A DNA stretch of 64,000 nucleotides from Mytilus trossulus (lineage: Eukaryota), in assembly GCF_036588685.1 (NCBI RefSeq), contig NC_086373.1:106640001-106704000 (forward strand), written 5' to 3'. The number at the start of each line of letters is the position of its first letter. Within the stretch, counting starts at the first letter, position 1. The position numbers and the translations under genes were made by a program. This document shows, piece after piece, positions 21,101 to 63,700 of this stretch. The notes beneath the pieces are model-generated. The model was given only the letters and a program-made list of their open reading frames with translations. It made no database searches and was not told where the DNA came from.

Positions 21101-23574
21101 CACCATCCTTTGTCTCAACGAATGATAAGTCCGAAGTACCGAACTGTCAGGACGATGAAAAGACTTTAAATGAGGAAATAAATGCGCCACACTGTCCGGA
21201 CGATGAAAATGCTTCAGCATTAAATGAGGAAACATATGTGCCACAATGTAAAGACGATGAAATTACTTCAGATTTAATTAGGGAAATAGATGTACCACAA
21301 TGTCAAAACGATGAAATTACTTCAGAATTAAATGAGGAAATAGATGTACCACAATGTCAAAACGATGAAATTACTTCAGCTTTAAACGAGGAAATAGATG
21401 TACCACAATGTCAAAACGATGAAATTACCTCAGAATTAAATGAGGAAATAGATGTGCCACAATGTCAAAACGATGAAATTACCTTAGATTTAAATGAGGA
21501 AATGTATGTGCCACAATGTAAAAACGATGAAATAACTTCAGCATCAAACGACGAAACAGATGCATCACAAGGTCAGGATGATGAAAATACTTCAACATTA
21601 AATGCTGAAAAAGATGTGCCAGAACGTCAGGATGACGAAGATGTGTTACCATTAAATGAAAAAATGAATGCAACACACTGTCAGGAAAATGATGAGGTGT
21701 CGCCATCTAATGAGGGAACAGATATTTTCCCCCCAAACATAGATGTTGCACGAGAGAAAAAACCTGGAACAGATAAAAATGAAAAATTGGATGAAAATGA
21801 ATCACTTTGCAAAAGTGAATCAAGAAACCAGATTTTAGAACAGTGCGATGAAATACGAACAAGTATTGACACTAAACATGACGAGCAGACATCGGATAGT
21901 GAAAGTATGAACACTGAACAATCAACCAGAATTGATGACGTCATATTATTAGAATCAAGATCTGCAGTAACTGAATTTATTTCAAGTGATGCACCATTTG
22001 ATGATATCAAAGTCAATCTTGACACAAAGTGCTGCAATACTGAATTGTGCGAACATGAAATAGAATGCTCAAATCACACTAACATAACTACTTTTACCCA
22101 GGATGTGGAAGTCAGCTCTGTGAAAGACCAGACGAGTAGTACGATATCAAAAGATATTGTAGGTGAATTAGATAGTTCGATTACTAATGATGATAATAAC
22201 ATGTCTGAGCAACTAATTGAGAGTCTTAGTCATGTTTGTCCCTCCACTAAAAACAACGGAAACGATATAGAACTTCAAAGTGAAAACATTGCAAGTGCTC
22301 TTCAAGGACATGCTAGTGATAGTTACATAAATGATCACATTACCACTTCAGAATATGACAAAATATCAAAGAGCGATACGCCTTTCAACATCGTCTCACA
22401 ACCCTCTAATATAGAGGAAAATTCGCTTGAAACAAATATAGGAAAATTAACTATTAATGTATCTCATATGTATGACGAAGTACAAGCAACTGTCACTCCA
22501 CCACCATCCGCTTGTCTCGTTAAACCTCTATCAGGAACTATGGGTGATAATAATATCCCAATTATTAGTTCTAAGAATGCAGAGCATAAACAAATGCCTA
22601 ACCCTGATAAATCAGTGACGTCCTTGTCAATAAAAAATTCTGTCATGGATGAATCGAATAGTGCAATTGACCGGTCTACAATTGATACTAAATTTGACTC
22701 ATATGCGGTTAAAGCATCAAACTCGTGTATTGAAAACAATGAACAAAATGCTGCGCCTGTATCTGGCAACATACATGCTTTAGTTGAGAAAGATTTGTAT
22801 GAAAGTAGTAATACTGACAAACTTATGTCTCAATTTGAAAAGGATAACGTTGAAGGTGAACTAAACACATCAAAATATTCAGAATTAGAAATGCAAGGTG
22901 CTAAAATGATTGAAAATACTGTTGAGTGTATAGATAAAAAAAATGAAGAAACGTGTCAAATGCAGTCAATAATTCATACAGAAACGGTTGTTCAAGAAAC
23001 AAAACTTTCAGACAATAGCACACAACAGCCCCAACAAAGAGAAGGCGAGCAAACACATCTGAAAATGTTTATATCAGAGGGACAAAACAATGTCGTAGAT
23101 ATAGTGCGAGACAATATTCATACATCTATCAGACAACCAAAACACGGTGCTTGTCAGGAAACAAACGATACAGAACGAAAAACAGTCAGTTTGATAATGG
23201 ACAATGTTCAAAGTTCAAAATCCTCGCATAATTCGCCGAAATCAGACAATGAAAACATTATTTCAAGTATTCACGAAGAGGTTTGCGACGAACACATTGA
23301 AGATAACATTAATGACGAGGATGACTTGTGCAAACTTTCTACCAGTGAAATCGTTGCAGGATTTAGAAAACTTGGGATAAGGAAAAGTGTAATAGATATT
23401 GTTCAGCAACGCAGTCTTCGAGGATCAAACTTAAAAGATAATCAAAATCTTGGACAAATTTTCCCTGGAATATCGTGCATTGACAAGCGAAAGATTAGTA
23501 TGTTTTTGCAAGGCATGATGCAAAGTTCTGATTCTTCAGGCAAACACAATCCGACTGAACCAATATGGGTTTGA
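15127..23574 (+). CDS. GAREM-like adaptor: N-terminal CABIT, Tyr/Pro-rich region, acidic repeats, C-terminal SAM-like domain, ~1437 aa; exons 15127-15379 and 19514-23574
   Basis: Phase-1 intron (AAAG|gtaagc ... aatag|GA TGG TTT) gives LVIPEDYKG-WFAV, in frame with the 1333-aa ORF. CABIT core YLLCTDECEREILLPFNQKGVF; PPPVCSPPPLP; Tyr motifs YIEM, YIDM, YDIP, YENF. The C-terminal DLCKLSTSEIVAGFRKLGIRKSVI...IDKRKISMFLQG resembles the GAREM SAM domain. Confidence 0.85.
16043..16088 (+). ncRNA. Minimal type I hammerhead ribozyme (core intact), sense strand of the GAREM-like gene intron
   Basis: TACATCA-CTGAAGA-GACA(TTAAT)TGTC-GAAA-TCCGGA-TA^TGGTGTA. Helix I is 7 bp, helix II is 4 bp, helix III is the palindrome ATCCGGAT, and the cleavage triplet is AUA. 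Confidence 0.8.
17505..17850 (+). repeat. Dispersed repeat (GACGAAAGATA..CAAACTCATAGATCGAAAATAAACTGACAACGCC family)
   Basis: Related copies occur at ~32070-32220 and ~53495-53740. Confidence 0.6.
21130..21720 (+). repeat. Coding 54-bp (18-aa) tandem repeat, consensus LNEEIDVPQCQNDEITSE, about 10-11 units
   Basis: Visible directly in DNA and protein. Central units are near-identical and flanking units are degenerate. Confidence 0.9.
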
Positions 23575-39100: not shown

Positions 39101-42100
39101 ATCAAATATGTACCTTTCACACATCTCAAACACAAACAAGCAGACACAACCCACTATTACAGCAGTTAAATGTTTCCAGTACAACTTCAGTCTGTTTCTC
39201 TCTGTCTGGTCCTATAAAACAATGTTAATATACTGATTGAGATATCTCTGTCTGATTCTAAAAGAGAATGTTAATATAACGACTGACATCATCTATATAA
39301 TGTTAATTTGCACTAATTTAATTCATACTTAAAATCAACAGATCATCAATTTCATGCTAGACTAAAATTATCTTTTAGGCAAAAATTAAATATGATAAGA
39401 GAAAATAGTAAACAATCAAGACATTGAATGAATGTACATGTTTATATGCATGATATGTATTGGATGTAGGTCATTGTAGGTCCAGTTTTATAGTTTATTT
39501 GTATTGAAGGTATTAACACATTTGAGAATATTTTTTATATGTACAGATTTATGCATAATGGATGATTAAATCATTTGTATATTGGATGTATGTATAATTG
39601 TATGGATGTTGGATGTATAAACACATTTGTGCGTCTTTTTAATATGTACATGTTTATGCATTTATTCATTCATTCATTTCTTTATTTCCTCTATCAAGAG
39701 ATTCAATGAACAACATATATGTTAACAAATTAAATTACAAAGGTTTACAAAAACAGGCAACAAAATACAATATTACACTATTTACAATAACTAAAGCATA
39801 TTACCAAAAGAAAATTTTAAGACAATTGCTCTCACTAACGACAGCTCATGTACTTAGCAAGCTACTGTATTATCCTTCTCGTTACTCTGCTATACTCAGC
39901 AACACAGAGTGCAACGTGTATGTGGCACAAACTAAGAAAACTGTCAGTGTCGATATTTACTGTTGTTATGTGCTTGCCCAAAAGAATGCAGTATAATTGT
40001 TCATCTTCATATGAATACAGTTCGACAAATAATTGCAATGGAAACCTTTCAATAATGAAATCCCACCATGCATCTCTGATTGATTGAGTACCACAACAAC
40101 TACAACACGCATGTACGTACACATCTAGACGCAAGTGCTTCCCGTGTTGTTAGGGATGTCAGTTAGTAATTTTGTTATGAAGTATGTGTTTACGACTTCT
40201 CTTGATGATGTACATTGGGGGAATGTGAAGTATAAAAATGTGTGTGCATGGGATAAATGTAAAGGTTTGTGTGTATGGGATGTATGTACAGGTATGTGCC
40301 TGTTGTTTATGTCAATTTCTAATGACTTGATCATCCTATTGTGTATAATATCAGCAAAAATGCTTACTAAATGTCTTCAGATCTCATAATAATAGCATCC
40401 TTCATTATTCTATGATGAACTTACCATTATATGTTCTCCAGTAAATATAATCCAGAAAGACAACAACATGGCATAGAACGCTCCCTGTCTGATATCATTC
40501 AGCAGTAGCATGAAGGGAATATTCAACCAAAATGTCAACCATTCAATGGGTACTGAAACATTATAAGCATAAGTAAATGTTAACTACATACTATGTTACA
40601 CACACACACACACAGAAACATATATATGGACTTGACTTTCATGTGATGTAAGGCATTTTAAAGTACACAATCAGAAATACTTCGATGCTATCTTGTGATT
40701 TATGTGTTGAAATGCTTGCATTACAAAGATAACTGACAAGCTTCTTTTTGACAGTGTAAGAAAATCTAAAATGGTAGTTTCTTTAATGTGTAAAATTTTC
40801 AAAGTCCTGAATGTCATACTATCAGAGACACATGCGTATATGTTAAACTATTATTACTGTGTTTGAGTAACTTACAGTTTATATGTTTGAGTTACATACC
40901 TATCTTGCTATTTCAACTTCGCGTTTTCTTAATAAATGAATCTTTATCGTAACAAGAGGCTCTAAAGAGCCAGTGTTGCTAACTTTGGTCTATGTGCACA
41001 TTCAACAAAAGACACAATAGAATTCATGAAATTTATAACAAAAATCTATGTTTTGTTGATATTGTCTTACTATAAGGCATAAAGCCAAAAAAAATCGTAA
41101 TTAAAGGACAATAACTCAAATAAGGAGTTGTCGGACCAGGCGAGCTAAAAATGAGTATGACTTACAGTTTAAGATTGACATTGTTATTCCCAAGGCAAAG
41201 AGTGTTCTGAAAATTTAAAAACATAAATACCTGTTATTATACAGTAAATAAATATACAATTTAAATGTCTTTTATCAATCTACAAATGTACATATGATGG
41301 AATATAATGCATATCAATGTTAACAGTGTTAATCGTCTACAGCTTACTTGTCAGACAGACTTACCATTCAGGGAGCATTTAATGCTATTCCATTACTTTG
41401 TTATGTACAATTAATTAACAGTTCTGACTAACCACATTTGACAAATAAGAAAGAGGTAAAATGTTCCATGTCCTACTGTCCTTGATACAACAGGGAAATC
41501 AATGTGAATTAGCTAAACATCACTATTGGCATGAATGTTTAATGCTCTAACCTCTCTTTATATACAAAATTATGTCATATTTTGCAAAACTTTTCTATGT
41601 AGTTTTTACTTATTTTAAACGCTTCTACATGTAGTAAGTTTTTGAGTCTTCACATGTGTAACTATTGAGATCTTACCTTTCTAGTAAGTTTTGGAGTATA
41701 CATTTGTGTGGCTATAGAGATCTCACCTGTCCAGTAAGTTTTGGGGTCATTGTCAACACATCTGAGACTATTGAGATCTAACCTTTATAGTAAGTTTGGG
41801 GGTCTACACATCTGTGAGTATTGAGATCCTACCTTTCTTGTAAGTTTGGGGGTCTACACATCTGTGACTATTGAGATCTAACCTTTCTAGTAAGTTTGGG
41901 GGTCTACACATCTGTGACTATTGAGATCTAACCTTTCTAGTAAGTTGGGGGTCAACACATCTGTTACTATTGAGATCTAACCTTTCTAGTAAGTTTGGGG
42001 TCTACACATCTGTGACTATTGAGATCTAACCTTTCTAGTAAGTTTGGGGGTCAACACATCTGTGACTATTGAGATCTAACCTTTCTAGTTAGTTTGGGGT

Positions 42101-45100
42101 CTACACATCTGTGACTATTGAGATCTTAACTTTCTAGTAAGTTTTGGGGTCAACACCAGGGACTAAACTTAACTGTTTTTGTCTAGGGGCCAGCTGGGCC
42201 CCTAAGATATTTTTTTCAGGGGCTCAGTTGAAAGTTTAGGAGCCCAGCCAATCTTTATACAAAAAGAATAAATGAAAATAAAACTGAAAATAACTTAATA
42301 TACTTACTAACAGTGTTCCAGCTTGAATCTCAGGGCAGAAGGGAGCTAGTGCTCCTAAGTAAGGAGTTTTAAAAATAAAACCGGTGAGATGGGAGAGGAT
42401 AATTTTATTTTGATGAAACATTACATTGCATACATTGCAGAAGCTAAGAACTGTTACTTTTTTTCTCCATAATTGTTAAAATTAAAAGCAGTTAATAAGT
42501 GCCCCCATGCTGAGACTACTATAACACAAAAAAAAAAAAAATGTGTTATAGTAGTCTCAGCCCCATGTAAGGAGGATCATAAATACAAGAAGTAAAACAG
42601 GAAGTACAGTCTTGTTTATGTTCAAATACAAATTTCTCTGATTCTTCTTTAAATATATGTTCATGGTATGAAACAAAACAGTTTTTTTTAATAAAGCTTA
42701 TAATATTTAAATTATTGCCACCAAAAATGTATTATAAGATTTGACAATATTTATTTTAGGTTATTTCCTGCCAAAATTGTCTCCCTTCGTTTTTTTCAAC
42801 TTCCTGTTGACCTTTAGACAACATGGCTGTTTCTTCTTTTAATAAATACTATCTCAATCCAAGCCATCCTCTAATAGTGTTGATCAAAATATATTTTGCA
42901 ATAAGTTTTTATTGAAGATTGGATATCAAACTTAATATTGGGATATTTATTTACGAGACTTTGCGTTTCGTTTTTACATTAAGTATTTTTTTGTAAATAG
43001 CGATTTAGGGACAAGTTACCGTCTAACACAGGCTTATGATGACTGCCAGGTCAATTAGAAAACATCCCTTTCGCGATGCTTATTGGACAGTTGAGATCAG
43101 TTGAGAAGAAAACACTATTCAATAATGAAATAATCGTAGGAAATCTAGCAGAGTTGAAAAAAAAACATGTTGATTGAGGAGGTATATGATATATCGTGAC
43201 TTCGGATTGAAAACATAGCTGTTCGACTGGGTTTAGGTTATTAGAAAGAACCTACTGGTTTTCGAAATACTCTATGTTACTATATCGCTTTGAAAAGACA
43301 AAACAGGTTTCCTTTTGGGAACAGTCTTTGTTAATATCGCTGGGGAAAGGGTACAAATGGGATTTACTTCAAATTTTTTAACAGTCGCCAGCTGGGCGAT
43401 CATGATGACTAAATTTGCCCAGCCGAAAATCTGGTCGCCTCGGGCGACTGGGCGAGCGTTAAGTTTAGTCCCTGCAACACATCTGTGACTAATGAGATCT
43501 AACCTTTCTAGAAAGTTTTGGGGTCAACACATCTGTGACTATTGAGATCTAACCTTTCTAGAAAGTTTTGGGGTCAACACATTCTGTGACTATTGAGATC
43601 TAACCTTTCTAGTAAGTTTTGGGGTCTACACATGTGTGACTATTGAGATCTAACCTTTCTAGAAAGTTTTGGGGTCAACACATCTGTGACAATTGAGATC
43701 TCACTTTTCTAGTAAGTTTTGGGGTCAACACATCTGTGACTATTGAGATCTAACCTTTCTAGAAAGTTTTGGGGTCAACACATCTGTGACTATTGAGATC
43801 TCACTTTTCTAGTAAGTTTTGGGGTCAACACATCTGTGACTATTGAGATCTAACCTTTCTAGTAAGTTTTGGGGTCTACACATGTGTGACTATTGAGATC
43901 TAACCTTTCTAGAAAGTTTTGGGGTCTACACATGTGTGACTTATGAGATCTAACCTTTCTAGAAAGTTTTGGGGTCAACACATCTGTAACTATTGAGATC
44001 TCACTTTTCTAGTAAGTTTTGGGGTCAACACATGTGTGACTATTGAGATCTCACTTTTCAAGTAAGTTTTGGGGTCTACACATGTGTGACTATTGAGATC
44101 TAACCTTTCTAGAAAGTTTTGGGGTCAACACATGTGTGACTATTGAGATCTCACTTTTCAAGTAAGTTTTGGGGTCTACACATGTGTGACTATTGAGATC
44201 TCACTTTTCTAGTAAGTTTTGAGGTCTACACATGTGTGACTATTGAGATCTAACCTTTCTAGTTAGTTTTGGGGTCTACACATGTGTGACTATTGAGATC
44301 TAACCTTACTAGTTAGTTTGGGGGTCTACACATCTGTGACTATTGAGATCTAACCTTTCTAGTAAGTGTTGGGGTCTACACATGTGTGACTATTGAGATC
44401 TAACCTTTCTAGTAAGTTTGGGGGTCTACACATCTGTGACTATTGAGATCTAACCTTACTAGTAAGTTTAGGGGTCTACACATGTGTGACTATTGAGATC
44501 TAACCTTACTAGTTAGTTTGGGGGTCTACACATGTGTGACTATTGAGATCTCACTTTTCAAGTAAGTTTTGGGGTCTACACATGTGTGACTATTGAGATC
44601 TCACTTTTCTAGTAAGTTTTGAGGTCTACACAAGTGTGACTATTGAGATCTAACCTTTCTAGTTAGTTTTGGGGTCTACACATGTGTGACTATTGAGATC
44701 TAACCTTACTAGTTAGTTTGGGGGTCTACACATCTGTGACTATTGAGATCTAACCTTTCTAGTAAGTGTTGGGGTCTACACATGTGTGACTATTGAGATC
44801 TAACCTTTCTAGTAAGTTTGGGGGTCTACACATCTGTGACTATTGAGATCTAACCTTACTAGTAAGTTTAGGGGTCTACACATGTGTGACTATTGAGATC
44901 TAACCTTACTAGTTAGTTTGGGGGTCTACACATCTGTGACTATTGAGATCTAACCTTACTAGTAAGTTCTGGGGTATACACATCTGTGATTATTGAGATC
45001 TAACCTTTCTAGAAAGTTTTGGGGTCAACACATCTGTGACTAATGAGATCTAACCTTTCTAGAAAGTTTTGGGGTCAACACATCTGTGACTATTGAGATC

Positions 45101-48100
45101 TAACCTTTCTAGTAAGTTTTGGGGTCTACACATGTGTGACTATTGAGATCTAACCTTTCTAGAAAGTTTTGGGGTCAACACATCTGTGACTAATGAGATT
45201 TAACCTTTCTAGAAAGTTTTGGGGTCAACACATCTGTGACTAATGAGATCTAACCTTTCTAGAAAGTTTTGGGGTCAACACATCTGTGACTAATGAGATC
45301 TAACCTTTCTAGAAAGTTTTGGGGTCAACACATCTGTGACTATTGAGATCTCACTTTTCTAGTAAGTTTTGGGGTCTACACATGTGTGACTATTGAGATC
45401 TAACCTTTCTAGAAAGTTTTGGGGTCAACACATCTGTGACTAATGAGATCTAACCTTTCTAGAAAGTTTTGGGGTCAACACATCTGTGACTAATGAGATC
45501 TCACCTTTCTAGAAAGTTTTGGGGTCAACACATCTGTGACTATTGAGATCTCACTTTTCTAGTAAGTTTTGGGGTCTACACATGTGTGACTATTGAGATC
45601 TAACCTTTTAGAAAGTTTTGGGGTCAACACATCTGTGACTATTGAGATCTCACTTTTCTAGTAAGTTTTGGGGTCTACACATCTGTGACTATTGAGATCT
45701 AACCTTTCTAGAAAGTTTTGGGGTCAACACATCTGTGACTTATGAGATCTAACCTTTCTAGAAAGTTTTGGGGTCAACACATCTGTGACTATTGAGATCT
45801 AACCTTTCTAGTAAGTTTTGGGGTCTACACATGTGTGACTATTGAGATCTAACCTTTCTAGTTAGTTTGGGGGTCTACACATCTGTGATTATTGAGATCT
45901 AACCTTTCCAGTAAGTTTGGGGGTCTACACATCTGTGATTATTGAGATCTTACCTTTCTAGTAAGTTTGGGGGTCTACACATCAGTTGTATCCTTTTCCA
46001 AAACCAGATTAACACAATCAGAACACATGGAAACATGAAAGTCTTAATGGAGAACCATATTATAGTAAATCCTCCATTCTGATGAATTGTCTACAACAAC
46101 AAAAACAGAATTATCTTAAAATAAACAGGTATAAATGGGACACTGATGATGCCATGCTTGCATATAAAGCTATAAAATAATTTAACTAAAGAAATGTTAA
46201 AATGATGCTACCCAAATTTGTACTTGATACATGTAAGTTTCATAATATTTGCTTGAGGCATTTTTCATTTGTAAAGAAGCATAATTAACTCTCGAACGAT
46301 TAAAGTAACACCACCAACATTCAAACTTTATATGTGTTTTTTTGTTAAGTACATTGTATTAAATAAGTGTTGTCTGTACATTTCATAACATTTGGTTGAG
46401 GCAAACTAAAGTAAGAGAATAAAAATCTATTGATAAAGGAGCATAACTCTAAAACAGTGAAAGTGACGCCACCAAAATAAAAACTTGATCTGTGTTTTGT
46501 GGTTATAAGCATTGTCTATTAATTTCATAAAACTTGGTTGAGTCAAACTGAAGCAAAAAATTCAGCAATGTTTTCATTGGTAAAGGGGCAGAATTCTAGT
46601 ATGGTAAAAGTGACGCCACCAAAATTCAAACATGATTTTTGTTTTCAAATAAGCATTGTGTATAAATTTGATTGAGGCAAACTTAATAGTTATCAAAGGT
46701 ACCAGGATTATAAGATAGAGAACAGAAACCAACTTTGGGATGTATGTACATAAAATGTATGTTTAAGTAGATTAAGAGAACTTATTAAGGTTTAGACAAT
46801 ATAATCAACAACAGGTGATATCTATTAAAAATTCTACTAACCACAAGAGAGATATCATCAATCTGACCAATATTTATATTCTTCTCAGGACTGGGAGGGA
46901 GTCGTAGGTTCAGAAGATAGTAATCATGGTGTAAACTGGAAATCTCAAAGGCATGCAGCAGCTCACAATCATACTGAGACCCTGGTTCTGTCTTAAAAAT
47001 AAATTTAAAGATGAAAGTAATGGTTGATTAGAACAATTGATGAACAGCAATATAAAACTTTATCAATTATAAAAATAATAATAATTTAGTAATTCCTACC
47101 TCATTCTTCTCATTAGAAGTGTCAGAACAGACAAGTTTTCAGTAATTCCTACCTCATTCTTCTCATTAGAAGTGTCAGAACAGACAAGTTTTCAGTAATT
47201 CCTACCTCATTCTTCTCATTAGAAGTGTCAGAACAGACAAGTTTTCAGTTATTCCTACCTCATTCTTCTCATTAGAAGTGTCAGAACAGACAAGTTTTCA
47301 GTTATTCCTACCTCATTCTTCTCATTAGAAGTGTCAGAACAGACAAGTTATCAGTAATTCCTTCCTCATTCTTCTCATTAGAAGCGTCAGAACAGACAAG
47401 TTATTAGTAATTCCTTCCTCATTCTTCTCATTAGAAGTGTCAGAACAGACAAGTTTTCAGTAATTCCTACCTCATTCTTCTCATTAGAAGTGTCGGAACA
47501 GACAAGTTTTCAGTAATTCCTACCATTAGAAGTGTCAGAACAGACAAGTTTTTAGTTATTCCTATAGAAGTGTTGGAACAGACAAGTTTTCAGTAATTCC
47601 TACCTCATTCTTCTCATAAATACTGATGGAACAGAATTTTTTTTAGTAATTCCTACCTCATTCTTCTCATTTGTACTGATGGTACAGACAAGTTTTCTAT
47701 CCTCTGCAGATTCTGCCAGTAATTTCCAATCACCCTCTCTATCTCCTTCGTTCCTGTAACCCAGTCTAAAATCCAACAGCATCACTGGGTTTAGTCCTAA
47801 TAATGATAAATAAATAAACATAGAGTGAAAATGCAGTGGTGACTGATGATATAGATGTACTGTAAATGAAGTGAGTTCAAATCTGCAATTTTGCAAGCCC
47901 TCTCTCATGGTGCTTCTTGAGGTATTTTTTTTAAGAGTTCTAAATTCAGTTCTTTGCACACATTAAATGACCTAAAAGTTAACTGTTTGTACACTTTTGT
48001 TCTTTGGTCTTTAGATTAAGCTTAGTCAATTAAAGAGGAAACATGTCCAATATCACTGCTCAATTTGAGGCTCAGTTGCATCCGGATATACATTTACATG

Positions 48101-51100
48101 AAGACAAAATTTAATTCATTTAATTGTCCACATATGCTCTCAAACATAAAGTTAATCTCCAAACACTTACCTTTACATAGATATTGTTTAATAAGGGAAG
48201 AAACTTCAATAATAAAAGGTAGGGCCATTAAGGGCTCCAAAAAATAGAAATAAAGGTTACAGATTAAAACAACATGTCTTGTGCCCTATGATTTAACAGT
48301 CTGCACCAAAAACTTTTTCAACTACTAGTCCAAAGACCAATATTCAGACATTTTTCTTATTGGTCCAAAAAATTTTTGCAAAAACTTGCTAGTCCGAATG
48401 AAATTTTACTAGTCTGGGGCATCGGACTAGTGGCTAACCGTGCAGCCTGTGATTATGAAAATAGTTTACATGTTCTCGCTTGAATGGCAATACTAATTTT
48501 TGATACATTAATTGTAGTAACTTCAATGTATACCATTCAGCATGTTCAGTCAATGCCCTAAAACATCAAGATGCATGTACACGAATACTGTAAACCAACT
48601 TATTTTGCGACTTACAATGTACATGTATAACACAAATATAAATCATCCTAAATATGTCAAACTGGGATCTTTCCTTGTTAAACTACATTGTACATCAAGT
48701 TAATTAGAAAATCGCCAAATTAAATAGCCGTGAAGTGGACTAGAAAGTGGTAAACGCAAAATAAAGTATAAGCAATATTAACATGATTAATTTGGTTTAC
48801 AGTAATGGTAATCTTGAAGTGAATTCTTTACCAATGTAATCCACTTACCTACAGGATTGTGTGGTTGATATATAATGTCAAGCTGTAATACAGACATCAT
48901 GTACTGAAACCGTGGATGCATCTTCAGCTCTTGTCCATCTCTAGGGCCAGGAATCCAGAAAGCAAAAACAACCTGTTTGTCTGTTATCTCTTGACTAATG
49001 ATTTTAGGATCGTCAGGCCTTAAACTATCCAACTTCTCACAGCTAATGCTCTTATTTCCTCTAGGTATATGCCATTTCTCTCTGTTGACATATCTACCTC
49101 TGGAATAGCATTTTGTACCAATGATAATGTTCACATTGTTAGGTTGAGGAGCTACAAGTATAAAATTGAGTTATTTACATGCATGCAAAGCTTCCCATAT
49201 TATTTTCATTGAAACTAGAGACTCTTAAAGTGTTAATACCACCAAATCATAGTACGTCACATCCTGTTTTCCATGCGAAAAAGGGTTGAAAAAATTATCC
49301 CTTGAAATTGACATTTGTAGGAAATTAATCAAACATTTCATTGCAGTGAAAAATTTCTACGTTATAAACATCTATGTTGGTTGTTTTAAAGCAGTGTTAT
49401 TTTTCTATTTGGTGTTTCTATAGGTTTTGTTTTCTTGGGCTACAGTATCCACTCTTGTTCATAACATAGCTAGTATTCTGTAATAGCAACACAATTTGCC
49501 CCTGCTTTCCATTAGTTTCCAAATTATGTAAAAATAAGAAGTTGTGGTATGATTGTCAATGAGACAACCAGCTGGTGACAACTATCCACCACAGACCAAA
49601 TCATTTTATGCTTAGATGTAAACAACTTGTATTTGTAGGCGTTTGTTCAAGTTATTGCACATGGTTATTGGTATCCTGTTGGTAGCTGCACTGTGTGTTT
49701 TATCATGTGTATTAGTTTTATAACAAATGGTCTAAATGGGAAATCTGGTTTTTTGTGATAACATACTTTGTAAGACTGGTTAATTCTTATAACCCCACTA
49801 CATTTTGTGACTGAACAAAGTCAGGGTAATTAGACAGGACCATGTGTTGTTTGCTAATTTGTTTGTTGGCAAAGTATAACTGGAAGGGAAATCCCTTGTT
49901 TTGCTTGGTGATACTTCCAGAAGTGGGTAATACACGTACTGGCATGGGCATTATAAAGTTTTATCATTCTTTAGTTGTTACACAAGGCAAAATACAATTT
50001 AAATTTGCACATTTTTGAAAGCCAAAGTTTTGATATTTAGAAATCATTTCAAAGTACTGTTTTAGTTTATAGAAATAGAGGTAGTGTAAAAAGCCAAGAA
50101 AAATGGTTTTTGAATAACAACCAAATAGATATATGTGACAGTTTTGTATATTTGGGTATTCTTTTTAATTATAATGGCAGTTTTTTACATACTCAAAAAA
50201 TGTTAGCAAATCAAGGAAGAAAAGCTGTTTTTGCATTATGTAGTAAAATTGTAGATGAATATTATAACTGTGAAACATTACTGTCCTTATTTGATACCTA
50301 TGTATCTAGTATACTTAATTATAGCTGTGAAGTGTGGGGTAATCATAAAGCTGGTGATATAGAGAAAGTACATTTATGTTTTTTAAAACGAATTCTAAAG
50401 GTTAGAAAAACTGCTGTTAATAACATGGTTTACTGTGAATTGGGACGTTATCCAATGTATTATGAAAGACAAAGAAGACTGATTCAATTTTGGTTCAAAT
50501 TATTAAATACTGATAACTGTATACTTAAAGCATGTTATGAAGATATGTTGGAGAGTTCATTTAAAAAACCCAATGACAAATCGAATTGGGCTTGTTCAGT
50601 CAAAGATATATTATGTAGTTATGGTTTTCATGATGTATGGCTAAAACAAAGTGTAAATAATGTTGATATATTCATACATGAGCTAAAACAAAGAATGAAA
50701 GATACCTTTATTGCTGATGCTAATTCTTTTTTTAATAATTCATCAAAATGTATACTTTATAGATATATATATGACACAGATATACTGCAGTTTTATTTAG
50801 ATAGACCTGTTAATCAAATATATAAACCTTTTATATGTAAATATCGTATCTCCGCACATAGCCTCAATATAGAAACAGGCAGATATTACAATGTAGATAG
50901 AGAAAGTAGATTTTGTACTATGTGCACTAACAATATTGTAGAAGATGAATACCATGTTATTCTAGAATGTAATAGATATAGTGATGTAAGAAAACAATAC
51001 ATTAAGAAATATTATTGGCAATATCCATCCACTTTTAAACTTATACAGTTGTTATCAGTTCACAATGTAAAAGAACTTAATAATTTAGGTAAATTTTTGT

Positions 51101-52191
51101 TTAATATTGAAAAAAATCGTAATATGTAGTTGTATTATTTATTTATCATATGAATTTTTGTCTCATTCTCCGCCATGCATGTATTGTGTATAATTGTTGT
51201 ATTTATATTTCACTGATGCATTCAAAAAATATTGTAAAATTGTATATTCTATAAGCTGTATTGCTTCTGAATAAAGTATTATTATTATTAGTGCATTGTT
51301 AAATCTAATTGCTACATATTACTAAATAAACAACATTAAGGGTAAACGCCCCCTACACATATAGATTTAATAGAACAATAATAATTGTTGCTTGTATACC
51401 CATTGTGGGACCTTAATCATGTTAATTGGAATAATAAATATTTAATTTTATTAGATTTGTAGATAAGAAATGGAATGAAATAAAACAGAATTAGAAACAT
51501 GATAAAATGAATAGCCTACAGCAACTATTTTATATAATTAATTGTTTGAAGAATAATATTATGATTTAATTACACAAAATTAAATCTTTTGTTTATTTGT
51601 GTTACATTAAAATTTATCTGTTTGATTTTTTTAGTTGCAATACTGGTACAAAATATTGCAATCACCAACTACCAGATACAGGAGATCCACATAATGTATA
51701 CATGTACATTGTCTTTGTATTAATGTTATAAATTTATGCTGGGTGTAAGAGACTTTTCTTTGCACTCCCACTTAAAAAAATGTAATACCAATAAAAAATA
51801 GACAGCAGAAATGATGACTAATTCAAATAAACTTAAGTTTAAACAGCCTTACAGGGTAATTTGGTGCAAACTACAAAATATATCAAACATAATATTAGCA
51901 GGGTTTTTTTTACAAATAATCATCATTCTTGAACTACAATTAAATCATTTTGAAAATGTACATTTACAAAACAAAACACTGAATGTGTCACTGATAAGAC
52001 CGAATAAGTGTACTGTCCATAATTATTTATTTTACAAAAAGTTTGTACCCGAAAATTATCCGAGTGAAAAGTTAGTCAAACTTACCTTGCAAACCACCAA
52101 TTAAGAAAAACGTTATAAGTAACATAAGCAATATTAAGCTGAGAATGATGAGTTTCTTCCAACTCAAGTTTTCCAAAACAACGCCAGCCAT
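36175..52191 (-). CDS. wls: Wntless (Wls/Evi/GPR177), 548 aa, 13 coding exons: 52191-52086, 49151-48849, 47796-47657, 46991-46842, 46090-45954, 41206-41166, 40552-40425, 39211-39114, 38582-38519, 37830-37687, 37080-36927, 36773-36693, 36275-36175
   Basis: All exons are GT-AG bounded and phase-compatible (1647 nt total). Translation contains Wntless hallmarks: [88 protein letters not shown]. Confidence 0.97.
37831..38518 (-). other. U12-type (minor spliceosome) GT-AG intron, wls intron 9
   Basis: 5' splice site is GTATCCTTTT. Branch site TTCTTTAAC lies 8 nt from the 3' end (ATAAAAAG). There is no polypyrimidine tract. Confidence 0.9.
37981..38436 (+). mobile_element. Second HINE-like element with two ~180-bp internal repeats, inside the wls U12 intron
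   Basis: Starts AACAAG. Contains a duplicated block (TGTTCAGTGGACC..GAAATTGGGGT...TTTCAAGTTGATTGGACTTCAAC), short GACT repeats, a 3' hairpin and an A-run. Confidence 0.6.
42157..43474. mobile_element. Non-autonomous TIR DNA transposon (1318 bp), hAT-like ends, 6-bp TSD
   Basis: Perfect 17-bp TIR CAGGGACTAAACTTAAC / GTTAAGTTTAGTCCCTG. CAACAC is duplicated at 42151-56 and 43475-80. The empty site can be read from neighbouring satellite units. Confidence 0.9.
42510..42560. mobile_element. 51-bp miniature inverted-repeat element (19-bp arms plus poly-A spacer) with a 7-bp TSD
   Basis: CCCCATG | CTGAGACTACTATAACACA (A)n TGTGTTATAGTAGTCTCAG | CCCCATG. Confidence 0.8.
47088..47697 (-). repeat. 53-bp tandem array (~11 units plus the original) derived from the wls exon 3 / intron 3 junction
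   Basis: The unit GAAAACTTGTCTGT..AATGAGAAGAATGAG|GTAGGAATTACT repeats at 47088, 47141, 47194 and onward, and matches the exon 3 end and donor. Confidence 0.95.
50060..51290 (+). mobile_element. 5'-truncated non-LTR retrotransposon (LINE) 3' end, in wls intron 1, antisense to wls
   Basis: The 339-aa ORF has the post-RT motifs [14 protein letters not shown] and ELGRYP, and a C-terminal [16 protein letters not shown]...EDEYH....C zinc-knuckle region. It is followed by AATAAA and a (TTA)n tail at 51270-51290. Clade not determined. Confidence 0.9.
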
Positions 52192-54719: not shown

Positions 54720-57700
54720 ATGGAAGCAAATAACACCAAAGACTATTCCTGTGGGGAACACAATGATGTCCAGATTGAAGTTCTTGATGTAAATAACGAC
54801 CCAACTGATGATTCACAAAACCAAACACAGTATGTATCGCTTTCTATCTAAAATTGACTATAATACTCACCAGAAAACTTCAAACTAAGCATGCTGAAAA
54901 CTTACTTGGTCACGAAATAGACAGTATTACTATAATACTCAACAAAAAACTTCCAACTAAGCATGCATGTGTTGAAAACTTACTTGGTCACGAAATAGAC
55001 AATAGCATTGATATCAGACTTCAAACTATGCATGCATGTGCTGAAAACTTACTTGGTCACGAAATAGACAGTAGCATTGATATCAGACTTCAAACTAAGC
55101 ATGCATGTGCTGAAAACTTACTTGGTCACGAAATAGACAGTAGCATTGATATCAGACTTCAAACTAAGCATGCATGTGTTGAAAACTTACTTGGTCACGA
55201 AATAGACAGTAGCATTGATATTAGACTTCAAACTAAGCATGCATGTGTTGAAAACTTACTTGGTCACGAAATAGACAGTAGCATTGATATCAGACTTCAA
55301 ACTAAGCATGCATGTGCTGAAAACTTACTTGGTCACGAAATAGACAGTAGCATTGATATCAGACTTCAAACTAAGCATGCATGTGCTGAAAACTTACTTG
55401 GTCACGAAATAGACAGTAGCATTGATATCAGACTTCAAACTATGCATGCATGTGCTGAAAACTTACTTGGTCACGAAATAGACAGTAGCATTGATATCAG
55501 ACTTCAAACTAAGCATGCATGTGCTGACAACTTACTTGGTCACGAAATAGACAGTCGCATTGATATCAGACTTCAAACTAAGCATGCATGTGCTGAAAAC
55601 TTACTTGGTCACGAAATAGACAGTAGCATTGATATCAGACTTCAAACTAAGCATGCATGTGTTGAAAACTTACTTGGTCACGAAATAGACAGTAGCATTG
55701 ATATCAGACTTCAAACTAAGCATGCATGTGTTGAAAACTTACTTGGTCACGAAATAGACAGTAGCATTGATATCAGACTTCAAACTAAGCATGCATGTGC
55801 TGAAAACTTACTTGGTCACGAAATAGACAGTAGCATTGATATCAGACTTCAAACTAAGCATGCATGTGTTGACAACTAACTTGGTCACGAAATAGACAGT
55901 AGCATTGATATCAGACTTCAAACTAAGCATGCATGTGCTGAAAACTTACTTGGTCACGAAATAGACAGTAGCATTGATATCAGACTTCAAACTAAGCATG
56001 CATGTGTTGAAAACTTACTTGGTCACGAAATAGACAGTAGCATTGATATCAGACTTCAAACTAAGCATGCATGTGTTGAAAACTAACTTGGTCACGAAAT
56101 AGACAGTAGCATTGATATCAGACTTCAAACTAAGCATGCATGTGCTGAAAACTTACTTGGTCACGAAATAGACAGTAGCATTGATATCAGACTCGATGAA
56201 TTGTAATAAGATATACATCTGATTCTTCATCAAACAGGGGGCCCAAAACTTACATTGAATAAAACGAACAATGGGGTGCAAGGTTTTCGATTCAAATTAT
56301 ACTAATCGACTTACAGAAATTGCGCCCCTACCTGTTCTATGTATTGTTATGAATCACAGTTTATGACTTGTCTTAAAAAAGTTCCGTCTTCATTTCATTT
56401 GACACCAAAAAAAATTCCAGGATGCAGTTTTGTTTTAAATAATTCAGAGTTATCTATTTATAGTGTGGAAAACATACTAAAATTGTTGAACATATTTTTA
56501 TGCCAGGCCTCTTATAACTTACTATACGATAAACGTTTTGCTTAATGTCGAAGGCTGCATATTGCATTGTTCCTGTAGTCGGTTACACCCATATCATGTG
56601 ATCTTTCGTGAAAAGTTGCCTCATTGGGAATAATTCCACGTCTCCCAATGTGTATCACGGTAACATTAGGAACCAAAAACAAAATTAACCGAATTGATAT
56701 CAATCAAACCAACATGATCACACGAGAATATGAATATTTGAATAATCTTTTCAGAATTAAAAAAATATGAATTGGGGATTTGTGCTTGAAGGAGGACATA
56801 AATGCTACTCATGCTGAATTATAATACTATACCATTTTATTTATTTATTTGTAATAGCTGACTTTTAGGCCTCAAGGAAAACTAAAGTCACTTTGCTAGG
56901 GTTCAGGATATTTATTAATCAGTAACGTAAAACACCCAACATGTGGAGCAAGGTAGTTACTGTTGTGGCACAAACCAATATACTCTATACTTTCCAACTA
57001 TTTCAATGGCTACTGGACATAAACGTCTGTCCTTTTCGACTCCATTAGTCCTTCTAACTCAAAACAAAGAACCTCGTCGAAAATCCAGTGGTTGTCTGTT
57101 TGGTACAGTTGTACGTTTGCACGAGTCCAGCTACGCGGGACTTCCAATCTTTCTTCTGCGTAGTCTGTAGAGTTCCAAGCATGTTCAATAATGTACGGTT
57201 GAATCTCTCTGTAAGTCCGTTACCCATAGGATGGTAAGGTGTTGTTCGAGACTTTTCCATTCCTGTAATGTTGCAGAGTTCTTTGATGATCTTGCTCCAA
57301 AGTTCGCTTCTTGATCAGAATGAATACAATGAAGTTGTTGAAAACGCATCTGCTGTGGTTTTTGCGGTCTGAAGTCTGAAGCTTCTCATAGTTGTTAAAG
57401 AACCAGTTGTTGAGTGGTGAATAGCTCAGCTGTTGTTTATCTGCTTTGCGATGTTCGTTTATCCAATATATCCAGTCTTCGATAAATCTGTCTCTGATTG
57501 TTCGGCTTTAACATCAACTAACTTCTGAGATGGTAATGAAGGATTCACAGATGCATCTGAAATAATCGATAAGCTCTGGTGATGAGGTTGAGCATATTGC
57601 AGGTTACAGATGGCTTTCACTGACTCTGGCTGGATGGTTTCAGTACATCTAGATAATCCATCGGCATCTGCATTAGCATTTCCTGGTCTGTATACAATGT

Positions 57701-60700
57701 TGAGATTGTAAGATGACAGACTTTTATCCATTTGTGTCCGGTAGCAGCAAGTTTAGCTGACGTCAAGACATAGGTGAGTGGATTGTTATCCGTAACTACA
57801 GTGAAGGTGTTTCCAAATAGGTAGTCGTCGAACTTTTCTGTCACTGCCCACGTTAAAGCCAAGAACCACCAATTTGTGGACAGGGTAATTCTTCTCGGAT
57901 TTACTCAAACCTCTGCTGGCATACGCAATGACTATTTTCTTATCACACTGTTCCTGGTACAAAACAGCACCTAGTTCAAGCATCGACGCATCTGTACGAA
58001 GTTCAAAGGGCTTGAGTACGATGGAAATCCAAGGATCGGATGGCGTGTGAGCTTTGACTTTAGTTGTTGAAATGCATCTTCTTTTGATTTCCCCCATATC
58101 CATGATGTATTAGCTGGTTGTAGTTTAATCTAGTGCTTTCGTGTCTTCTTATGAGTTGGCATTAGGTCAGTAAGCGGTCTGGCAATCCTCGAAAAGTCTT
58201 TAATGAACTTCCGGGAATATCCAATGAATCCCAGGAACTGTCTGACCTCATCTGCAGATGTTAGAGGTGGCCAGTTGACAACTTTCTCTATCTTCGCTGT
58301 GTTGGGTTGTATACCATCTCTAAATACTATGTGGCCAATGTACTTTACCTTTTCCTGGAAAAATGCGCACTTCTTTGGTGAAAGCTTGAGTCCACTCTCT
58401 CGTAGTCTCTGTAGAACTCTTTGTAGTCTATCTAGATGTTCTTCGTATGTATCTGAGAAGATAATCAGGTCATCAAGGTAGATGAAATAGATGTTCAGGT
58501 GCACGTCTCCAAGGATTTCTTCCATCAAACGTTGATAAGTGGCTGGACTATTGACGCGTCCGAATGGCAGTCTGTTGAATTCATTAAATCCAAGGGTTCC
58601 CTACGTGGGCGCCAAATATAATAGCTGACTTTTAGGCCTAAAGGAAACTAAAATCACTTTGCTAGGGTTCAGGATATTTATTAAACATTAATGTAAAACA
58701 CTCAACTTGTGGAGCAAGGTAGTTACTGTTGTGACACAAACCAATTCATGTACATACAAGAATATCATACAGTGATATCTTTATAACAGCTTACAAATTG
58801 TCAAAATGTCAAGTCTGTCAATACAATACAATCATGACTATACTTTCCAACTATTTCAATGGCTACTGGACATAAACGTCTGTCCATTTCGACTCCATTA
58901 GTCCTTCTAACTCAAAACAAAGAACCTCGGAACTAAGCGGTGAAACTTTAAACTAACCAATCAAATCCAAGTAACCATGTATTATGTATGTTTATATGAG
59001 ACAATATGTTATGAAGTTTATTGAATATTAACATAATTATACATCTTTATTAAAATATAAACAAAATAAAGAGGCTACCACATATTAAGAAGATAAACTT
59101 TCACAGTTTGACACCATTTCAAATTGCTGACATCCAACATGATTTATGATTCAGTTATAACTACAAAATTATGAATATTGTTACAATATAATAAATAATT
59201 GATATTTCCTGTTGTAGAGAGTTAGAAAATATTTGTTCAAATTCGTCGAATCTAGCATCACTGGCTGCAGCACATAAAGCAATGAAGTCACTAAAGGATC
59301 TGGTTCCTTGTGAATTTTCGCGAGAGGACATTACACATTCTGCCGATGAATTGATTAATTCATTAAATGCTAAAAGAAAAAGAGACTCAGAAATTATCGA
59401 GGACTTCAAAAAGACGTGCGAGTTGCAGGTAATTGTAATGTTCTTTAGTTTACACTCCCATGTGCCTGCTAATATTTTTTTTCAGCGGTTTGGTGATCAT
59501 TAAAAATTCCAAGCGGTTTCGTAAATTTTGAATCAATATTCACGCCAACCAAGTTCACCTAGATACACACAGATCGACTGTTCAATCGTTATTATGATAT
59601 GTTTCTGTCATTTTTATGAATTTATAATAATAATGATATTCACATCACATAATGTCTATAAAATAACGACAATGAAAATAACACCATATACATTTAATGA
59701 ATCTTGAGCTCGATCTTTCTTGATTTACCTTGAAGTGCTACATGACCTTAATGGGCCGTAAAAGAATAACCAAAGTAGACCATAAAAAATAACCAAAGTG
59801 GACCATAAAAGAATGACCAAAGTGGGCCATAAAAGAATGACCAAAGTGGGCCATAAAAGAATGACCAAAGTGGGCCATAAAAGAATAACCAAAGTAGACC
59901 ATAAAAGAATGACCAAGTGGGTTATAAAATTATGACCAAAGTAGACCATAAAAGAATGACCAAAGTGGACCATAAAATGATGACCAACGTGGCCATAAAA
60001 GAATAACCAAAGTAGACCATAAAAGAATGACCAAAGTGGGCCATAAAAGAATGACCAAAGTGGGCCATAAAAGATTGACCAAAGTGAACAATAAAAGAAT
60101 GACCAAAGTGGGCCATAAAAGAATGACCATAGTGGACCATAAAAGAATGAACAAAATGGGCCATAAAAGAATGACCAAAGTAGACCATAAAAGAATGACC
60201 TAAGTAGACCATAAAAGAATGACCAATGTGGGCCATAAAAGAATAACCAAAGTGGGCCATAAAAGAATAACCAAAGTAGACCATAAAAGAATGACCAAAG
60301 TGGGCCATAAAAGATTGACCAAAGTGTACAATAAATAATGACCAAAGTGGACCATAAAAGAATGACCAAAGTGAACCATAAAAATATAAACCAAAGTAGA
60401 CCATAAAAGAATAACCAAAGTGACCATAAAAGAATGACCAAAGTGGATCATAAAATAATGACCAAATTGGACTATAAAAGAATGACCAAAGCCAGGTGAC
60501 CACAAAATAATGACATAAATGGGCCATAAAAGAATAAAATATAAAGTAGACCATAAAAGAATGACCATGGTGGAACATAAAAGAATGACCAAAGTGGACC
60601 ATAAAATAATGACACGATTGGACATAAAAGCATGTCCAAAGTGGGCTATAAAAGAATGACCAAAGCCAGTTGACCACAAAATAATGACTTAAGTGGACCA

Positions 60701-63700
60701 TAAAAGAATAAACAAAGTAGACCATAGTAGAATAAACAAAGTAGACCATAAAAGATTGACCAAAGTGGGCCATGAAAAAATTACAAAAGTGGGAATATAA
60801 GAGAATTACGAAAGAGGACCATAGAAAAATAACCAAAGTAGACCATAAAAGAATGACAAAGTGGACCTTATATTAATGTCCAAAGTGGACCATAAAAGAA
60901 AGACCGAAGTGGACCTTAAACGAATGACCAAAGCAGACCATAAACAAAGTGGGCGATAAGAAAACGACCAAAGTGGACCATAAAAGAATAACCAAAACCA
61001 TCTAATGTCTTGACTTTGCCTAAGGGAATTGGCACGTTGATTTCTTAATAATTTCTAAATTGATCAACGGAAAATGTACGCAATGGTTGTTAGATAATAT
61101 GTCAGTGGCGAAAGACCGACTTCTTGGCTTAATGTATTGACTATTCTTGGGACGAACAGTTCACCAGCATTGTTAACGACACACATGAAAATAACACTTA
61201 ATCAACTTGATGTGTCTGGAAACAATCAAACAATAGAATAACAAGATGTCACGTGTTTGATTGCCAAGGACAACTATCGATCAGCGTCAAAAATTTGGAT
61301 TTAAGCAACAAAAGTAATGGGACACCAATAAACTTTTTTTTCTTTCGAAATTGACATGAATGACAGAAGATGCTTACCATGCGGACGATAATCGCATGTT
61401 GAAAGATTTATGACTGAAATCCCGGGAATCTCCTGAGTGTTTTTAACTTGATTTGTATCATTTATATGGATTAATGAGATTGCAAATTTAATGTTGCCTC
61501 TTATTCTCCTAATGTATTACCATAAAAAATCATTATATAGACACACATACATTATATAAATTAGACACACATACATTATATAAATATTTTAATCCATCCC
61601 GCTTCTACAATTCAAAATAACGTCAAAATAATGCATGTGATTAATTGGGTACCCTAGCATTATATCTTATTTATTTACGATCAGTAAGATATGTAAACTG
61701 AACAACAGTATTTCAGAACACTGGAAAAAAGTAAAAACACAAAATTACTGAACTCCGATGAAAATTCAAAAAGGAAAGTCCAAAAGGCAAAATTAACAAC
61801 TGTCATATTCCTGACTTGGTACAGACATTTTCTAATGTATAGACAGACATACATTATAAAAGACACCCTCAACATGTCGCATAAAATAAAAATAAAATGG
61901 ATTGCAAGGCCACTGATAAAGGACAGAGTTGAAACGGCAAAAAGCATACTGAACTGATCGATGTACTTTGCATGTAATTTAAAACATACATTATAATATC
62001 AAAATAGAATGACAGTTTTATACTCATCAACAAACATATACTAGTAATCGTGATCTAAATGGAGGTTTGTTGGTGCACATTTACACATTTTGACACCGAT
62101 CTCCTTTTTAAGAAATTTTATCTATTGATTTAGCCACTGGATTTAGCTTCTATCGGACTATCGTTTGTATTTTTTAACTTGAAAGATGTTGAATACTCTG
62201 ACATTAGGGATCAACACCTCTGAGAAGCCAAAAATTTCTAGAATTAAACTTTTAAAAACTTTTCTAAACCTGATTTTTGGGTTTATATGTCTGTAAAAAA
62301 ATAATTGGTGAAGAACACATCATATGGTGGTGCGCTTATTTATTGCAACGGCCCTTTGAAAGTACCAAATTTTGAGGATTTTTCCATTTTTCATAAATTT
62401 TTACCCATTTTGGGGCTTTTATCGTGAAAAAAATCACAGTTCCATAAATTAAACTTTTTTCATACTCTCAATAAAGATGAAGCGGACCATGGTGCCAATT
62501 TTGTAATTTTGCGATTTTTCTCTGTTTAAAGAACAAAATGCATATTATTTCAACGCCCTTGTTATAAATGATTGAAAAAAAAAATACATATCTAAGAAAT
62601 TTGAAAAGAAAAAGTTATATAGGATGTTTATGTTTCTGGTGAAATCATTTTGTGTACCCCTCACCCATTTTTCTAAAAATTTCACTAAAAAAGACTGACT
62701 TGATTAGTAATAAAATTTGAAAATTTCTTTACTCAAAAACTACTTATTGGAAATACACAATTCTTTCACAGAGTTAAGTTTGATTATGATAATTATTAAA
62801 TTCATTGCTACTTTCCATTTGTATCGCATGTTTTGGAAATAATTCCAGCACGAGATTTCAATGAGACTGAAATGTCAGAACAATACATCCTTAGTTTGTT
62901 AATCCAAAGAATATTAATGCGAAAAACCTTTTACAAAAGAATAAAAATAAGAGGCATACAAAATGGACAATAAAAATCGAAGGAAACCACAACTACAAAA
63001 ATGGAAAACAAAGATGTCATAAAATGGTCAAGACTTTGTAGATCTTAACGCCTTGTCTTTTTTATAAGTTGTATCGGTTTGCCTTCATATTTTCTTTTAT
63101 ATGACAATGGATTATACAGCATTTAATTTGATTTGAATTATATATACACACTATAGTTTTTCATTATTAGACCGTTATTAAACTTTTCTCCAAATGAGAC
63201 TGTGTCATCCTTCATTACATAATACTCACTCACAGTAACATAAAATATATTGTTTTGACTGATGGAGAATGAGGGTGTTAAGAAGCGTTTAAGAATCAAA
63301 ATTAACCTACCAGGAAATTTAACCTGAACTTGTTTTTTTCTTCGACTTTTGGAAATGAAAAAAATATGTCTGGTATGTCAAACATTCAGGGAGTTCAAGA
63401 CCTATGTAAACACAACATTACACATTGTACTACCAAGGTATGAAAATAAGTTTTAGTGTAGCATTTATTTTTATTTTCAGTATTTTTAAAGTTGATGTTC
63501 ATTTTTTTGTTTTCTTTTCAGACAAGCAGGTCTTGCACTCTTATAGAACAACACATATTTAAAATTTATGAAAAGCAGGGAAAAACTATCCAGGATAAAA
63601 TCCAAGAGTTGTATGCTGTTCTTGACAGAATATCAAAACTGGAAAAGAAGATACAAGAGTTCAAGCGAGCACTTCAGGGACTTTGCTTCGAGTTCAATGA

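What the first reader, a model, noticed from the sequence alone, without database searches (positions are those of the whole stretch)
47088..47697. Independent second donor-site array at wls exon 3
An unrelated 53-bp unit is again made of the exon 3' end plus the donor (AATGAGAAGAATGAG|GTAGGAATTACT), with about 11 copies. Most keep an intact GT and two have GT changed to GA. The copy next to the exon is most exon-like, while distal copies share a derived middle segment, which shows polar expansion into the intron. Two unrelated arrays with the same architecture in one gene suggest a mechanism that seeds tandem duplication at splice junctions (inference).
Basis: partly seen in the sequence, partly recalled or inferred. 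Interest (0 to 1): 0.7.

Follow-up and report, generated by a model that had tools for sequence, protein, structure and literature searches.

The report
Splice-donor minisatellite in mussel wntless
In a mussel's wntless gene the end of one exon and its splice signal are copied 11 more times into the next intron, a repeat type already known from lancelet and human genes and likely harmless here, but in a sample of this genome's genes 40-130-base repeats sit on splice junctions several times more often than chance predicts, which likely points to a bias in where such duplications arise.

Summary
The array is real. It holds 12 units (47697-47088, minus strand): 41 nt of wls coding exon 3 plus 12 nt of intron. 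Of the 11 extra copies, 8 keep GT, 2 have GA and 1 lost the site. Spliced contigs in 4 of 4 RNA-type runs use the first donor; every other donor would give a premature stop. The copy next to the exon is not the most exon-like overall (44/53 against 45-47/53), and alternative products would be +53/+133/+186, not +52/+105. The type is known: lancelet 'mirage' and human F7 repeats; the scan has noted it at ten or more other loci of this genome. Of 33 arrays with 40-130-bp units, 23 span a junction (14 donors, 9 acceptors) against 4.0 expected (5.0 GC-matched). A test fixed in advance on new introns gave 5 of 9 against 0.8 (p=0.0005). In 13 of 15 donor arrays the unit carries 20 nt of intron or less. 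Enrichment is supported; its cause is not settled.

The parts
47088..47697 (-). 53-bp tandem array, 12 units including the exon's own; fills 569 of the 665 nt of the intron
47645..47697 (-). founder unit: last 41 nt of coding exon 3 + first 12 nt of intron
47657..47795 (-). wls coding exon 3 (139 nt)
   Evidence: tblastn with P0001; RNA contig pieces in 4 of 4 runs
47655..47656 (-). authentic donor GT; mussel donor matrix score 9.6, above 67% of 847 mapped donors; 7 of 11 copies have the same 9-mer
46992..47656 (-). intron after coding exon 3, 665 nt
   Evidence: joint 46991-47657 in 4 of 4 RNA-type runs
47554..47591 (-). 38-bp deleted unit without donor
47353..47458 (-). two adjacent units with GT changed to GA (47417, 47364); likely one mutation copied once
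   Evidence: single origin is inference
46842..46991 (-). wls coding exon 4
45954..46090 (-). wls coding exon 5; its donor founds the second array
43477..45983 (-). second donor array, 50-bp unit, about 50 copies (exon-proximal part)
42157..43474 (.). 1.3-kb insertion with 17-bp terminal inverted repeats and a 6-bp target duplication that splits the second array
41632..42156 (-). second donor array, distal part, about 10 copies

Best explanation
This is a splice-junction minisatellite of the lancelet 'mirage' / human F7 type: a 53-bp piece spanning the wls exon 3 donor is repeated 11 times in the intron, spliced contigs use the first donor, and the copies are likely silent, unselected by-products of a duplication process that likely starts more often in exon-containing DNA. 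Shown: anatomy, local origin, the first donor in assembled RNA, premature stops behind every other donor, and genome-sample enrichment of 40-130-bp arrays at junctions. Inferred: (1) a first 40-130-bp duplication arises preferentially in exonic DNA, probably by repair of staggered breaks; (2) duplications wholly inside conserved exons are purged, and those that survive are the ones whose far end just clears the splice signal (about 5-16 nt behind a donor, about 19-60 nt before an acceptor); (3) the doublet then grows by unequal exchange or slippage; (4) first-donor choice, with nonsense-mediated decay as back-up, hides the copies from selection.
For: Unit equals own exon end + donor and is unique in the genome. 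Joint 46991-47657 in 4 of 4 RNA-type runs from 4 studies; no joint from a copy among the 15 rows shown. +53 shifts frame and stops in exon 4; all further donors read a stop at codon 19 of the intron. In 14 sampled donor arrays plus one shorter one the GT positions differ from the founder at 30 of 506 sites (5.9%) and other positions at 738 of 14,480 (5.1%): no sign of selection on the copies' GT. Enrichment: 23 of 33 arrays with 40-130-bp units span a junction, 3.96 expected, 5.01 GC-matched, rate ratio 16.7 (95% CI 7.6-39.2); 16 of 21 with one array per stretch, 2.5 expected. Test fixed in the notebook before new data: 5 of 9 against 0.78, p=0.00045. Already present in two-copy duplications: 8 of 20, rate ratio 4.9 (1.7-13.1). 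Donor units carry 20 nt of intron or less in 13 of 15 (4.8 expected). No repeat lay wholly inside a mapped exon hit. Donors with arrays are stronger than average (median about 10.4 against 8.5, p=0.002). F7 paper: downstream identical donors are functional yet unused (PMC1557585, abstract and Introduction). Tandem duplication from staggered nicks: PMC5730883 (passages; mouse cells).
Against: RNA evidence is assembled contigs, which drop rare forms; 29 joint rows were not shown and one run has contig depth inside the array, so minor use of copies is not excluded; PMC1557585 names two human genes in which proximal pseudo-sites are used. The 40-130-bp window was chosen after seeing the first data set, and the replication holds only 9 arrays. 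The sample is three motor-protein families, not the genome. Birth bias is inferred from counts; no mutation data. Acceptor units show no significant shift towards short intron parts (p=0.14), which a simple 'lesion rate falls off at the exon edge' model does not predict. Blunt or near-blunt array ends are only a trend (13 of 23 against 2 of 10, p=0.07). No outgroup genome was tested, so 'unusual for mussels' is not shown.
Confidence: 0.68

Rival explanations
1. The splice junction itself seeds the duplication: a splicing-coupled event, for example a break or template switch at the U1 snRNP footprint or a polymerase pause just behind the donor, fixes one breakpoint 5-16 nt into the intron.
For: Donor breakpoints pile up just behind the signal (13 of 15 within 20 nt; both wls arrays too, 12 and about 17 nt). 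Donors with arrays are stronger than average (p=0.002). Both donors and acceptors are enriched, each with an intron part about as long as its splicing signal.
Against: A survival filter gives the same lower limit and also favours strong donors. Two of 15 donor units have 52 and 60 nt of intron, and acceptor breakpoints are spread over 19-61 nt. No known pathway was found in 9 paper searches, none of which was aimed at such a pathway specifically.
Confidence: 0.17
2. No birth bias: duplications arise evenly, but arrays anchored in a conserved exon persist longer than intronic ones, which are deleted or decay in fast-turnover mussel introns.
For: Enrichment rises from doublets (4.9x) to arrays (16.7x). 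Mussel introns here carry many insertions and one presence/absence difference between runs.
Against: Intronic arrays are not enriched near junctions (10 of 87 within 50 nt, 9.0 expected). Short-unit arrays (15-39 bp) are not enriched (1 of 57, 2.9 expected), although anchoring should help them too. It does not explain the short intron part of donor units. In wls the copies have drifted from the exon, so the exon is not a master template.
Confidence: 0.1
3. The copies are functional: they tune Wntless level through unproductive splicing and decay, or act as U1 decoys or spacer.
For: 7 of 11 copies keep the full authentic 9-mer. Without the array the intron would be 108 nt, shorter than all 686 introns of the first mapping (minimum 137). 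The array appears in 4 of 4 DNA-type runs.
Against: GT positions change at the background rate across sampled arrays; only the first donor is seen in contigs; the affected genes are unrelated in function.
Confidence: 0.05

Closest known systems
Lancelet 'mirage' minisatellites (Adh3, troponin C, globins BflGb6 and BflGb9, PGBD5); PMC3087553 and PMC3902484, passages read; the original Adh3 papers were not read
   Same: Tandem unit spanning an exon-intron boundary, splice signal kept in many but not all copies, several arrays per gene, normal splicing reported, edge units diverged from inner ones, unit length in the reported range (10-160 bp).
   Different: Different phylum (mollusc). The passages read call the generating mechanism unclear and give no genome-wide rate; here a rate, a unit-length window and a breakpoint bias are measured.
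Human F7 intron 7 37-bp VNTR, with G1P3/6-16, CBS, LMNB2 and PDGF cases (PMC1557585; abstract, outline and Introduction read)
   Same: First unit spans the donor; identical pseudo-donors follow; the most upstream donor is used.
   Different: F7 unit is 4 nt exon + 33 nt intron; the wls unit is 41 + 12, and mussel donor units are mostly exon. Copy-number polymorphism is shown for F7, not here.
Variable internal tandem repeats at exon-intron boundaries of human segmental-duplication genes (PMC2812944, passages read)
   Same: Minisatellite-length repeats at boundaries.
   Different: Those alter gene structure or make new introns in young paralogues; wls is single-copy, conserved and its spliced product is unchanged.

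Membership tests
Mirage / F7-type splice-junction minisatellite | Tandem repeat whose terminal unit spans an authentic exon-intron boundary | tested here: met
Mirage / F7-type splice-junction minisatellite | Splice signal reiterated in the intronic copies, intact in many | tested here: met
   8 of 11 GT, 2 GA, 1 deleted
Mirage / F7-type splice-junction minisatellite | Locus-specific unit derived from the gene itself | tested here: met
   8 matches in G000, all in this array
Mirage / F7-type splice-junction minisatellite | Normal mRNA made from the authentic site | tested here: met
   4 of 4 RNA-type runs, contigs only; minor forms not excluded
Mirage / F7-type splice-junction minisatellite | Copy-number polymorphism between alleles | tested here: inconclusive
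   No listed contig spans the array; uneven cover between runs is only a hint
Mirage / F7-type splice-junction minisatellite | Somatic length instability (reported for lancelet Adh3) | not testable with these tools
   needs single-molecule data from one animal
Intron gain by tandem duplication (Rogers model) | Duplication creates a new intron using a donor and an acceptor in the copies | tested here: not met
   Exons 3 and 4 join as in the P0001 protein; no extra exon in contigs; best acceptor scores inside the array 3.6 and 4.1, below the 5th percentile (4.9) of real acceptors
Dispersed or transposon-borne satellite | Same unit at other loci | tested here: not met

The most novel reading that the evidence does not exclude
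Mytilus has a mutational route that makes 40-130-bp tandem duplications preferentially in or at the edge of exons, so that most locally born long-unit minisatellites in its genes are copies of splice junctions (about 2% of donors and 1% of acceptors in the sample, an undercount). In its strongest form the splicing signal itself positions the break. This would give a measurable genome-wide answer to how 'mirages' arise and thousands of natural alleles for testing first-donor choice and intron gain by duplication.
Probability: 0.4. Interest if true: 0.7.

Novelty: new member of a known kind. Interest (0 to 1): 0.42.

Why it matters
The single array is ordinary. The pattern behind it is not trivial: the papers read describe such repeats gene by gene and call their origin unclear, whereas here about 70% of 40-130-bp arrays in mapped introns span a junction, with one donor breakpoint packed against the splice signal. 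If this holds genome-wide it shows an exon-linked source of tandem duplication in a mollusc, explains part of mussel intron length, warns that exon-flanking PCR markers and gene annotation will be affected, and makes splice-site choice among identical donors testable on natural variation.

Tried and rejected
Protein-kinase family search for exon-centred loci: dominated by large single exons and tandem gene copies; its 30 loci were not used. Aldehyde dehydrogenase search: only 14 matches, not fetched. GC content as the cause: GC-matched expectation rises only from 4.0 to 5.0. Proximity to exons: 10 of 87 against 9.0. Ten-base periodicity of unit lengths, which Spo11 double cuts would suggest (recalled, not read): none in 25 units. 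Selection for in-frame units: 5 of 25 are multiples of 3. Breakpoint microhomology contrast: p=0.07, inconclusive. Copy number from DNA contigs: not measurable, no listed piece spans the array. Lack of RNA cover over the array in 3 of 4 runs is not counted as evidence. Earthworm metallothionein paper PMC12783039 (passages): intronic repeats not described as spanning junctions; not relevant. Paper searches with no hit on mussel or bivalve cases: (only the F7 paper); two searches gave no genome-wide junction test in their listings (titles and abstract starts only; PMC10078293 on human splicing-associated repeats was not opened). The library lacks most subscription journals, and no supplements were read.

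Full report
Gene context. The exon at 47795-47657 (minus strand) encodes a piece 93% identical to Mytilus californianus Wntless. tblastn with that protein places 13 coding exons between 52191 and 36178, and this is the third. The genome is a Mytilus mussel of 1.3 Gb. Contigs of 4 of 4 RNA-type runs from 4 studies join 48848-47795, 47657-46991 and 46842-46090 with canonical ends, and one continues from exon 5 into exon 6. 'RNA' is the tool's guess for these runs; the spliced joints support it.

The array. It runs 47697-47088 and holds 12 units, the first being the exon's last 41 nt plus 12 nt of intron. It fills 569 of 665 intron bases and ends exactly at a unit boundary. Of the 11 extra units, 9 are 53 bp, one 42 bp and one 38 bp; 8 keep GT (7 with the same 9-mer as the real donor), 2 adjacent ones have GA, 1 has lost the site. 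The first copy alone keeps the exon's middle segment, but has a changed start, and matches the founder at 44/53; units 4-11 match at 47, 45, 42, 44, 45, 46, 46, 46 of 53. The last three units are identical. This is the picture of an old edge unit and recent inner or distal turnover; direction of growth is not shown. The unit is unique to this place. Alternative donors lie at +53, +133, +186, +345, +398, +451, +504, +557; the first shifts the frame to a stop in exon 4, the others pass a stop at codon 19, so all would be decay substrates (established knowledge). No joint from a copy appears among the 15 of 44 joint rows shown. In 4 DNA-type runs from 3 studies contigs either include the first diverged copy (2 runs, one of which may be the source of the window) or break one unit inside each end (2 runs), so the array is not an assembly artefact; copy number could not be read.

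Second array. A 50-bp unit from the exon 5 donor is repeated about 60 times (45983-41632), split by a 1.3-kb element with terminal inverted repeats. Its real donor scores 11.6; 33 of 38 pattern-matched units carry a weaker variant. The two units are unrelated, each matching its own exon.

Known kind. Tandem repeats that span an exon-intron boundary were named 'mirages' in lancelet Adh3 and are described in globin, troponin C and PGBD5 genes, with normal splicing and an unclear origin (PMC3087553, PMC3902484; passages). Human F7 intron 7 and four further human genes have donor-spanning minisatellites; in F7 the upstream donor is used although the copies are functional, while in two of the genes proximal copies are also used (PMC1557585; abstract and Introduction). 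The scan's notes list ten or more such arrays elsewhere in this genome, and one already says they are unexpectedly common; these are unchecked AI notes and are not counted as support.

Enrichment test. I fetched 1.40 Mb over 28 myosin and 22 dynein gene stretches, built profiles from database proteins (decoy hits at 12 bits or more: 0 for myosin, 0 to 3 per dynein segment) and placed splice sites by frame and profile continuity. After dropping 46 hits that lay inside arrays, 687 introns (629 kb) had both ends placed. Among 85 TRF arrays (unit 15-500 bp, 2.5 copies or more) touching these introns, 11 span donors and 7 acceptors, against 9.4 expected if each were placed at random (p=0.0035). All 18 had units of 40-130 bp: 18 of 24 against 3.2. 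Since that window was chosen afterwards, I fixed it in the notebook and tested 160 new introns (114 from 31 kinesin stretches, 46 from 7 of 20 planned further dynein stretches of genes already sampled; 48 hits inside arrays dropped): 5 of 9 against 0.78, p=0.00045; all unit lengths 7 of 27 against 3.4, p=0.039. Pooled over 847 introns (819 kb): 23 of 33 against 3.96; units of 15-39 bp 1 of 57 against 2.9; units of 131-500 bp 1 of 22 against 6.2, mostly dispersed repeats. Rate ratio 16.7 (7.6-39.2), GC-matched expectation 5.0, 17 stretches affected, one array per stretch 16 of 21 against 2.5; two-copy duplications 8 of 20, ratio 4.9. Arrays left out because their intron could not be paired do not reverse this: of 47 further 40-130-bp arrays, 14 touch a mapped exon edge, as do 2 of 49 shorter ones (approximate edges).

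What the breakpoints say. Donor units are mostly exon: the intron part is 6-16 nt in 13 of 15 and 52-60 nt in 2 (mean share 0.24 against 0.53, below 1 in 100,000 simulations). Acceptor units hold 19-61 nt of intron in 8 measurable cases of 9, not different from the null (p=0.14). Donors with arrays are stronger than average (p=0.002), acceptors are not (p=0.21). GT positions in copies change at the background rate. Intronic arrays do not crowd near junctions. Ends tend to be near-blunt, sometimes with a few extra bases (p=0.07). No repeat lay wholly inside a mapped exon hit.

Mechanism. Selection alone cannot lift junction arrays above the intronic rate, so either birth or persistence must be biased. 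Persistence by anchoring predicts excess of short-unit arrays and of arrays near exons; neither is seen. I therefore favour a higher birth rate of 40-130-bp duplications in exon-containing DNA, with splicing as the filter: wholly exonic events are lost and survivors just clear the signal. Staggered-nick repair makes such duplications in mouse cells (PMC5730883, passages); its role here is inference. Exons in the sample are CpG-depleted (0.29 against 0.41 observed/expected), which fits methylation as one possible lesion source but does not test it. A splicing-coupled break at the donor remains open. The wider intron parts of acceptor units fit neither model neatly.

Verdict. The locus is a new member of a known repeat type and likely silent. 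Interest 0.42.

Noticed in passing
window 42157-43474: 1,318-bp insertion with 17-bp perfect terminal inverted repeats and a 6-bp target duplication inside the exon 5 array; parts match two other fetched stretches, so it is a dispersed non-autonomous DNA transposon (hAT-like ends; family label recalled, not tested).
   Followed up: partly
window 45983-41632: Copies of the exon 5 unit have a base that reads Gln, as in the M. californianus protein, where the present exon reads Leu: the array may predate that substitution. One base only.
   Followed up: no
window 46131-46754: One DNA-type run has a contig that joins across about 620 bp of high-copy repeat in wls intron 4 (record 17): likely presence/absence polymorphism of an insertion.
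   Followed up: no
window 46992-47087: Without the array the intron would be 108 nt, shorter than any of 686 mapped introns (minimum 137).
   Followed up: no
window 50041-51129 (+): 362-codon open frame in wls intron 1, opposite strand, resembling the C-terminal part of a LINE ORF2 (by eye, not searched).
   Followed up: no
window about 57000-58600 (-): Broken pieces resembling reverse transcriptase, RNase H and integrase of a Ty3/gypsy-type retroelement, in several frames (by eye).
   Followed up: no
window 54949-56193, 21166-21629, 59752-60996: Further arrays with units of 69, 54 and 24 bp (all multiples of 3); the 69-bp one has a 355-codon open frame. Whether they are coding was not tested.
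   Followed up: no
G000 C1:26.00-26.03 Mb, C3:16.31-16.37 Mb, C4:20.13-20.15 Mb: Long tandem runs (about 1.7-1.9 kb period, 10-30 copies) of a kinase-domain gene on three chromosomes.
   Followed up: no
L072-L073 (myosin stretch M18) and L127-L130 (dynein D09), L131 (D10): Large junction arrays: 41 bp x 69, 109 bp x 34, 64 bp x 50; several dynein genes carry two or three junction arrays each.
   Followed up: partly
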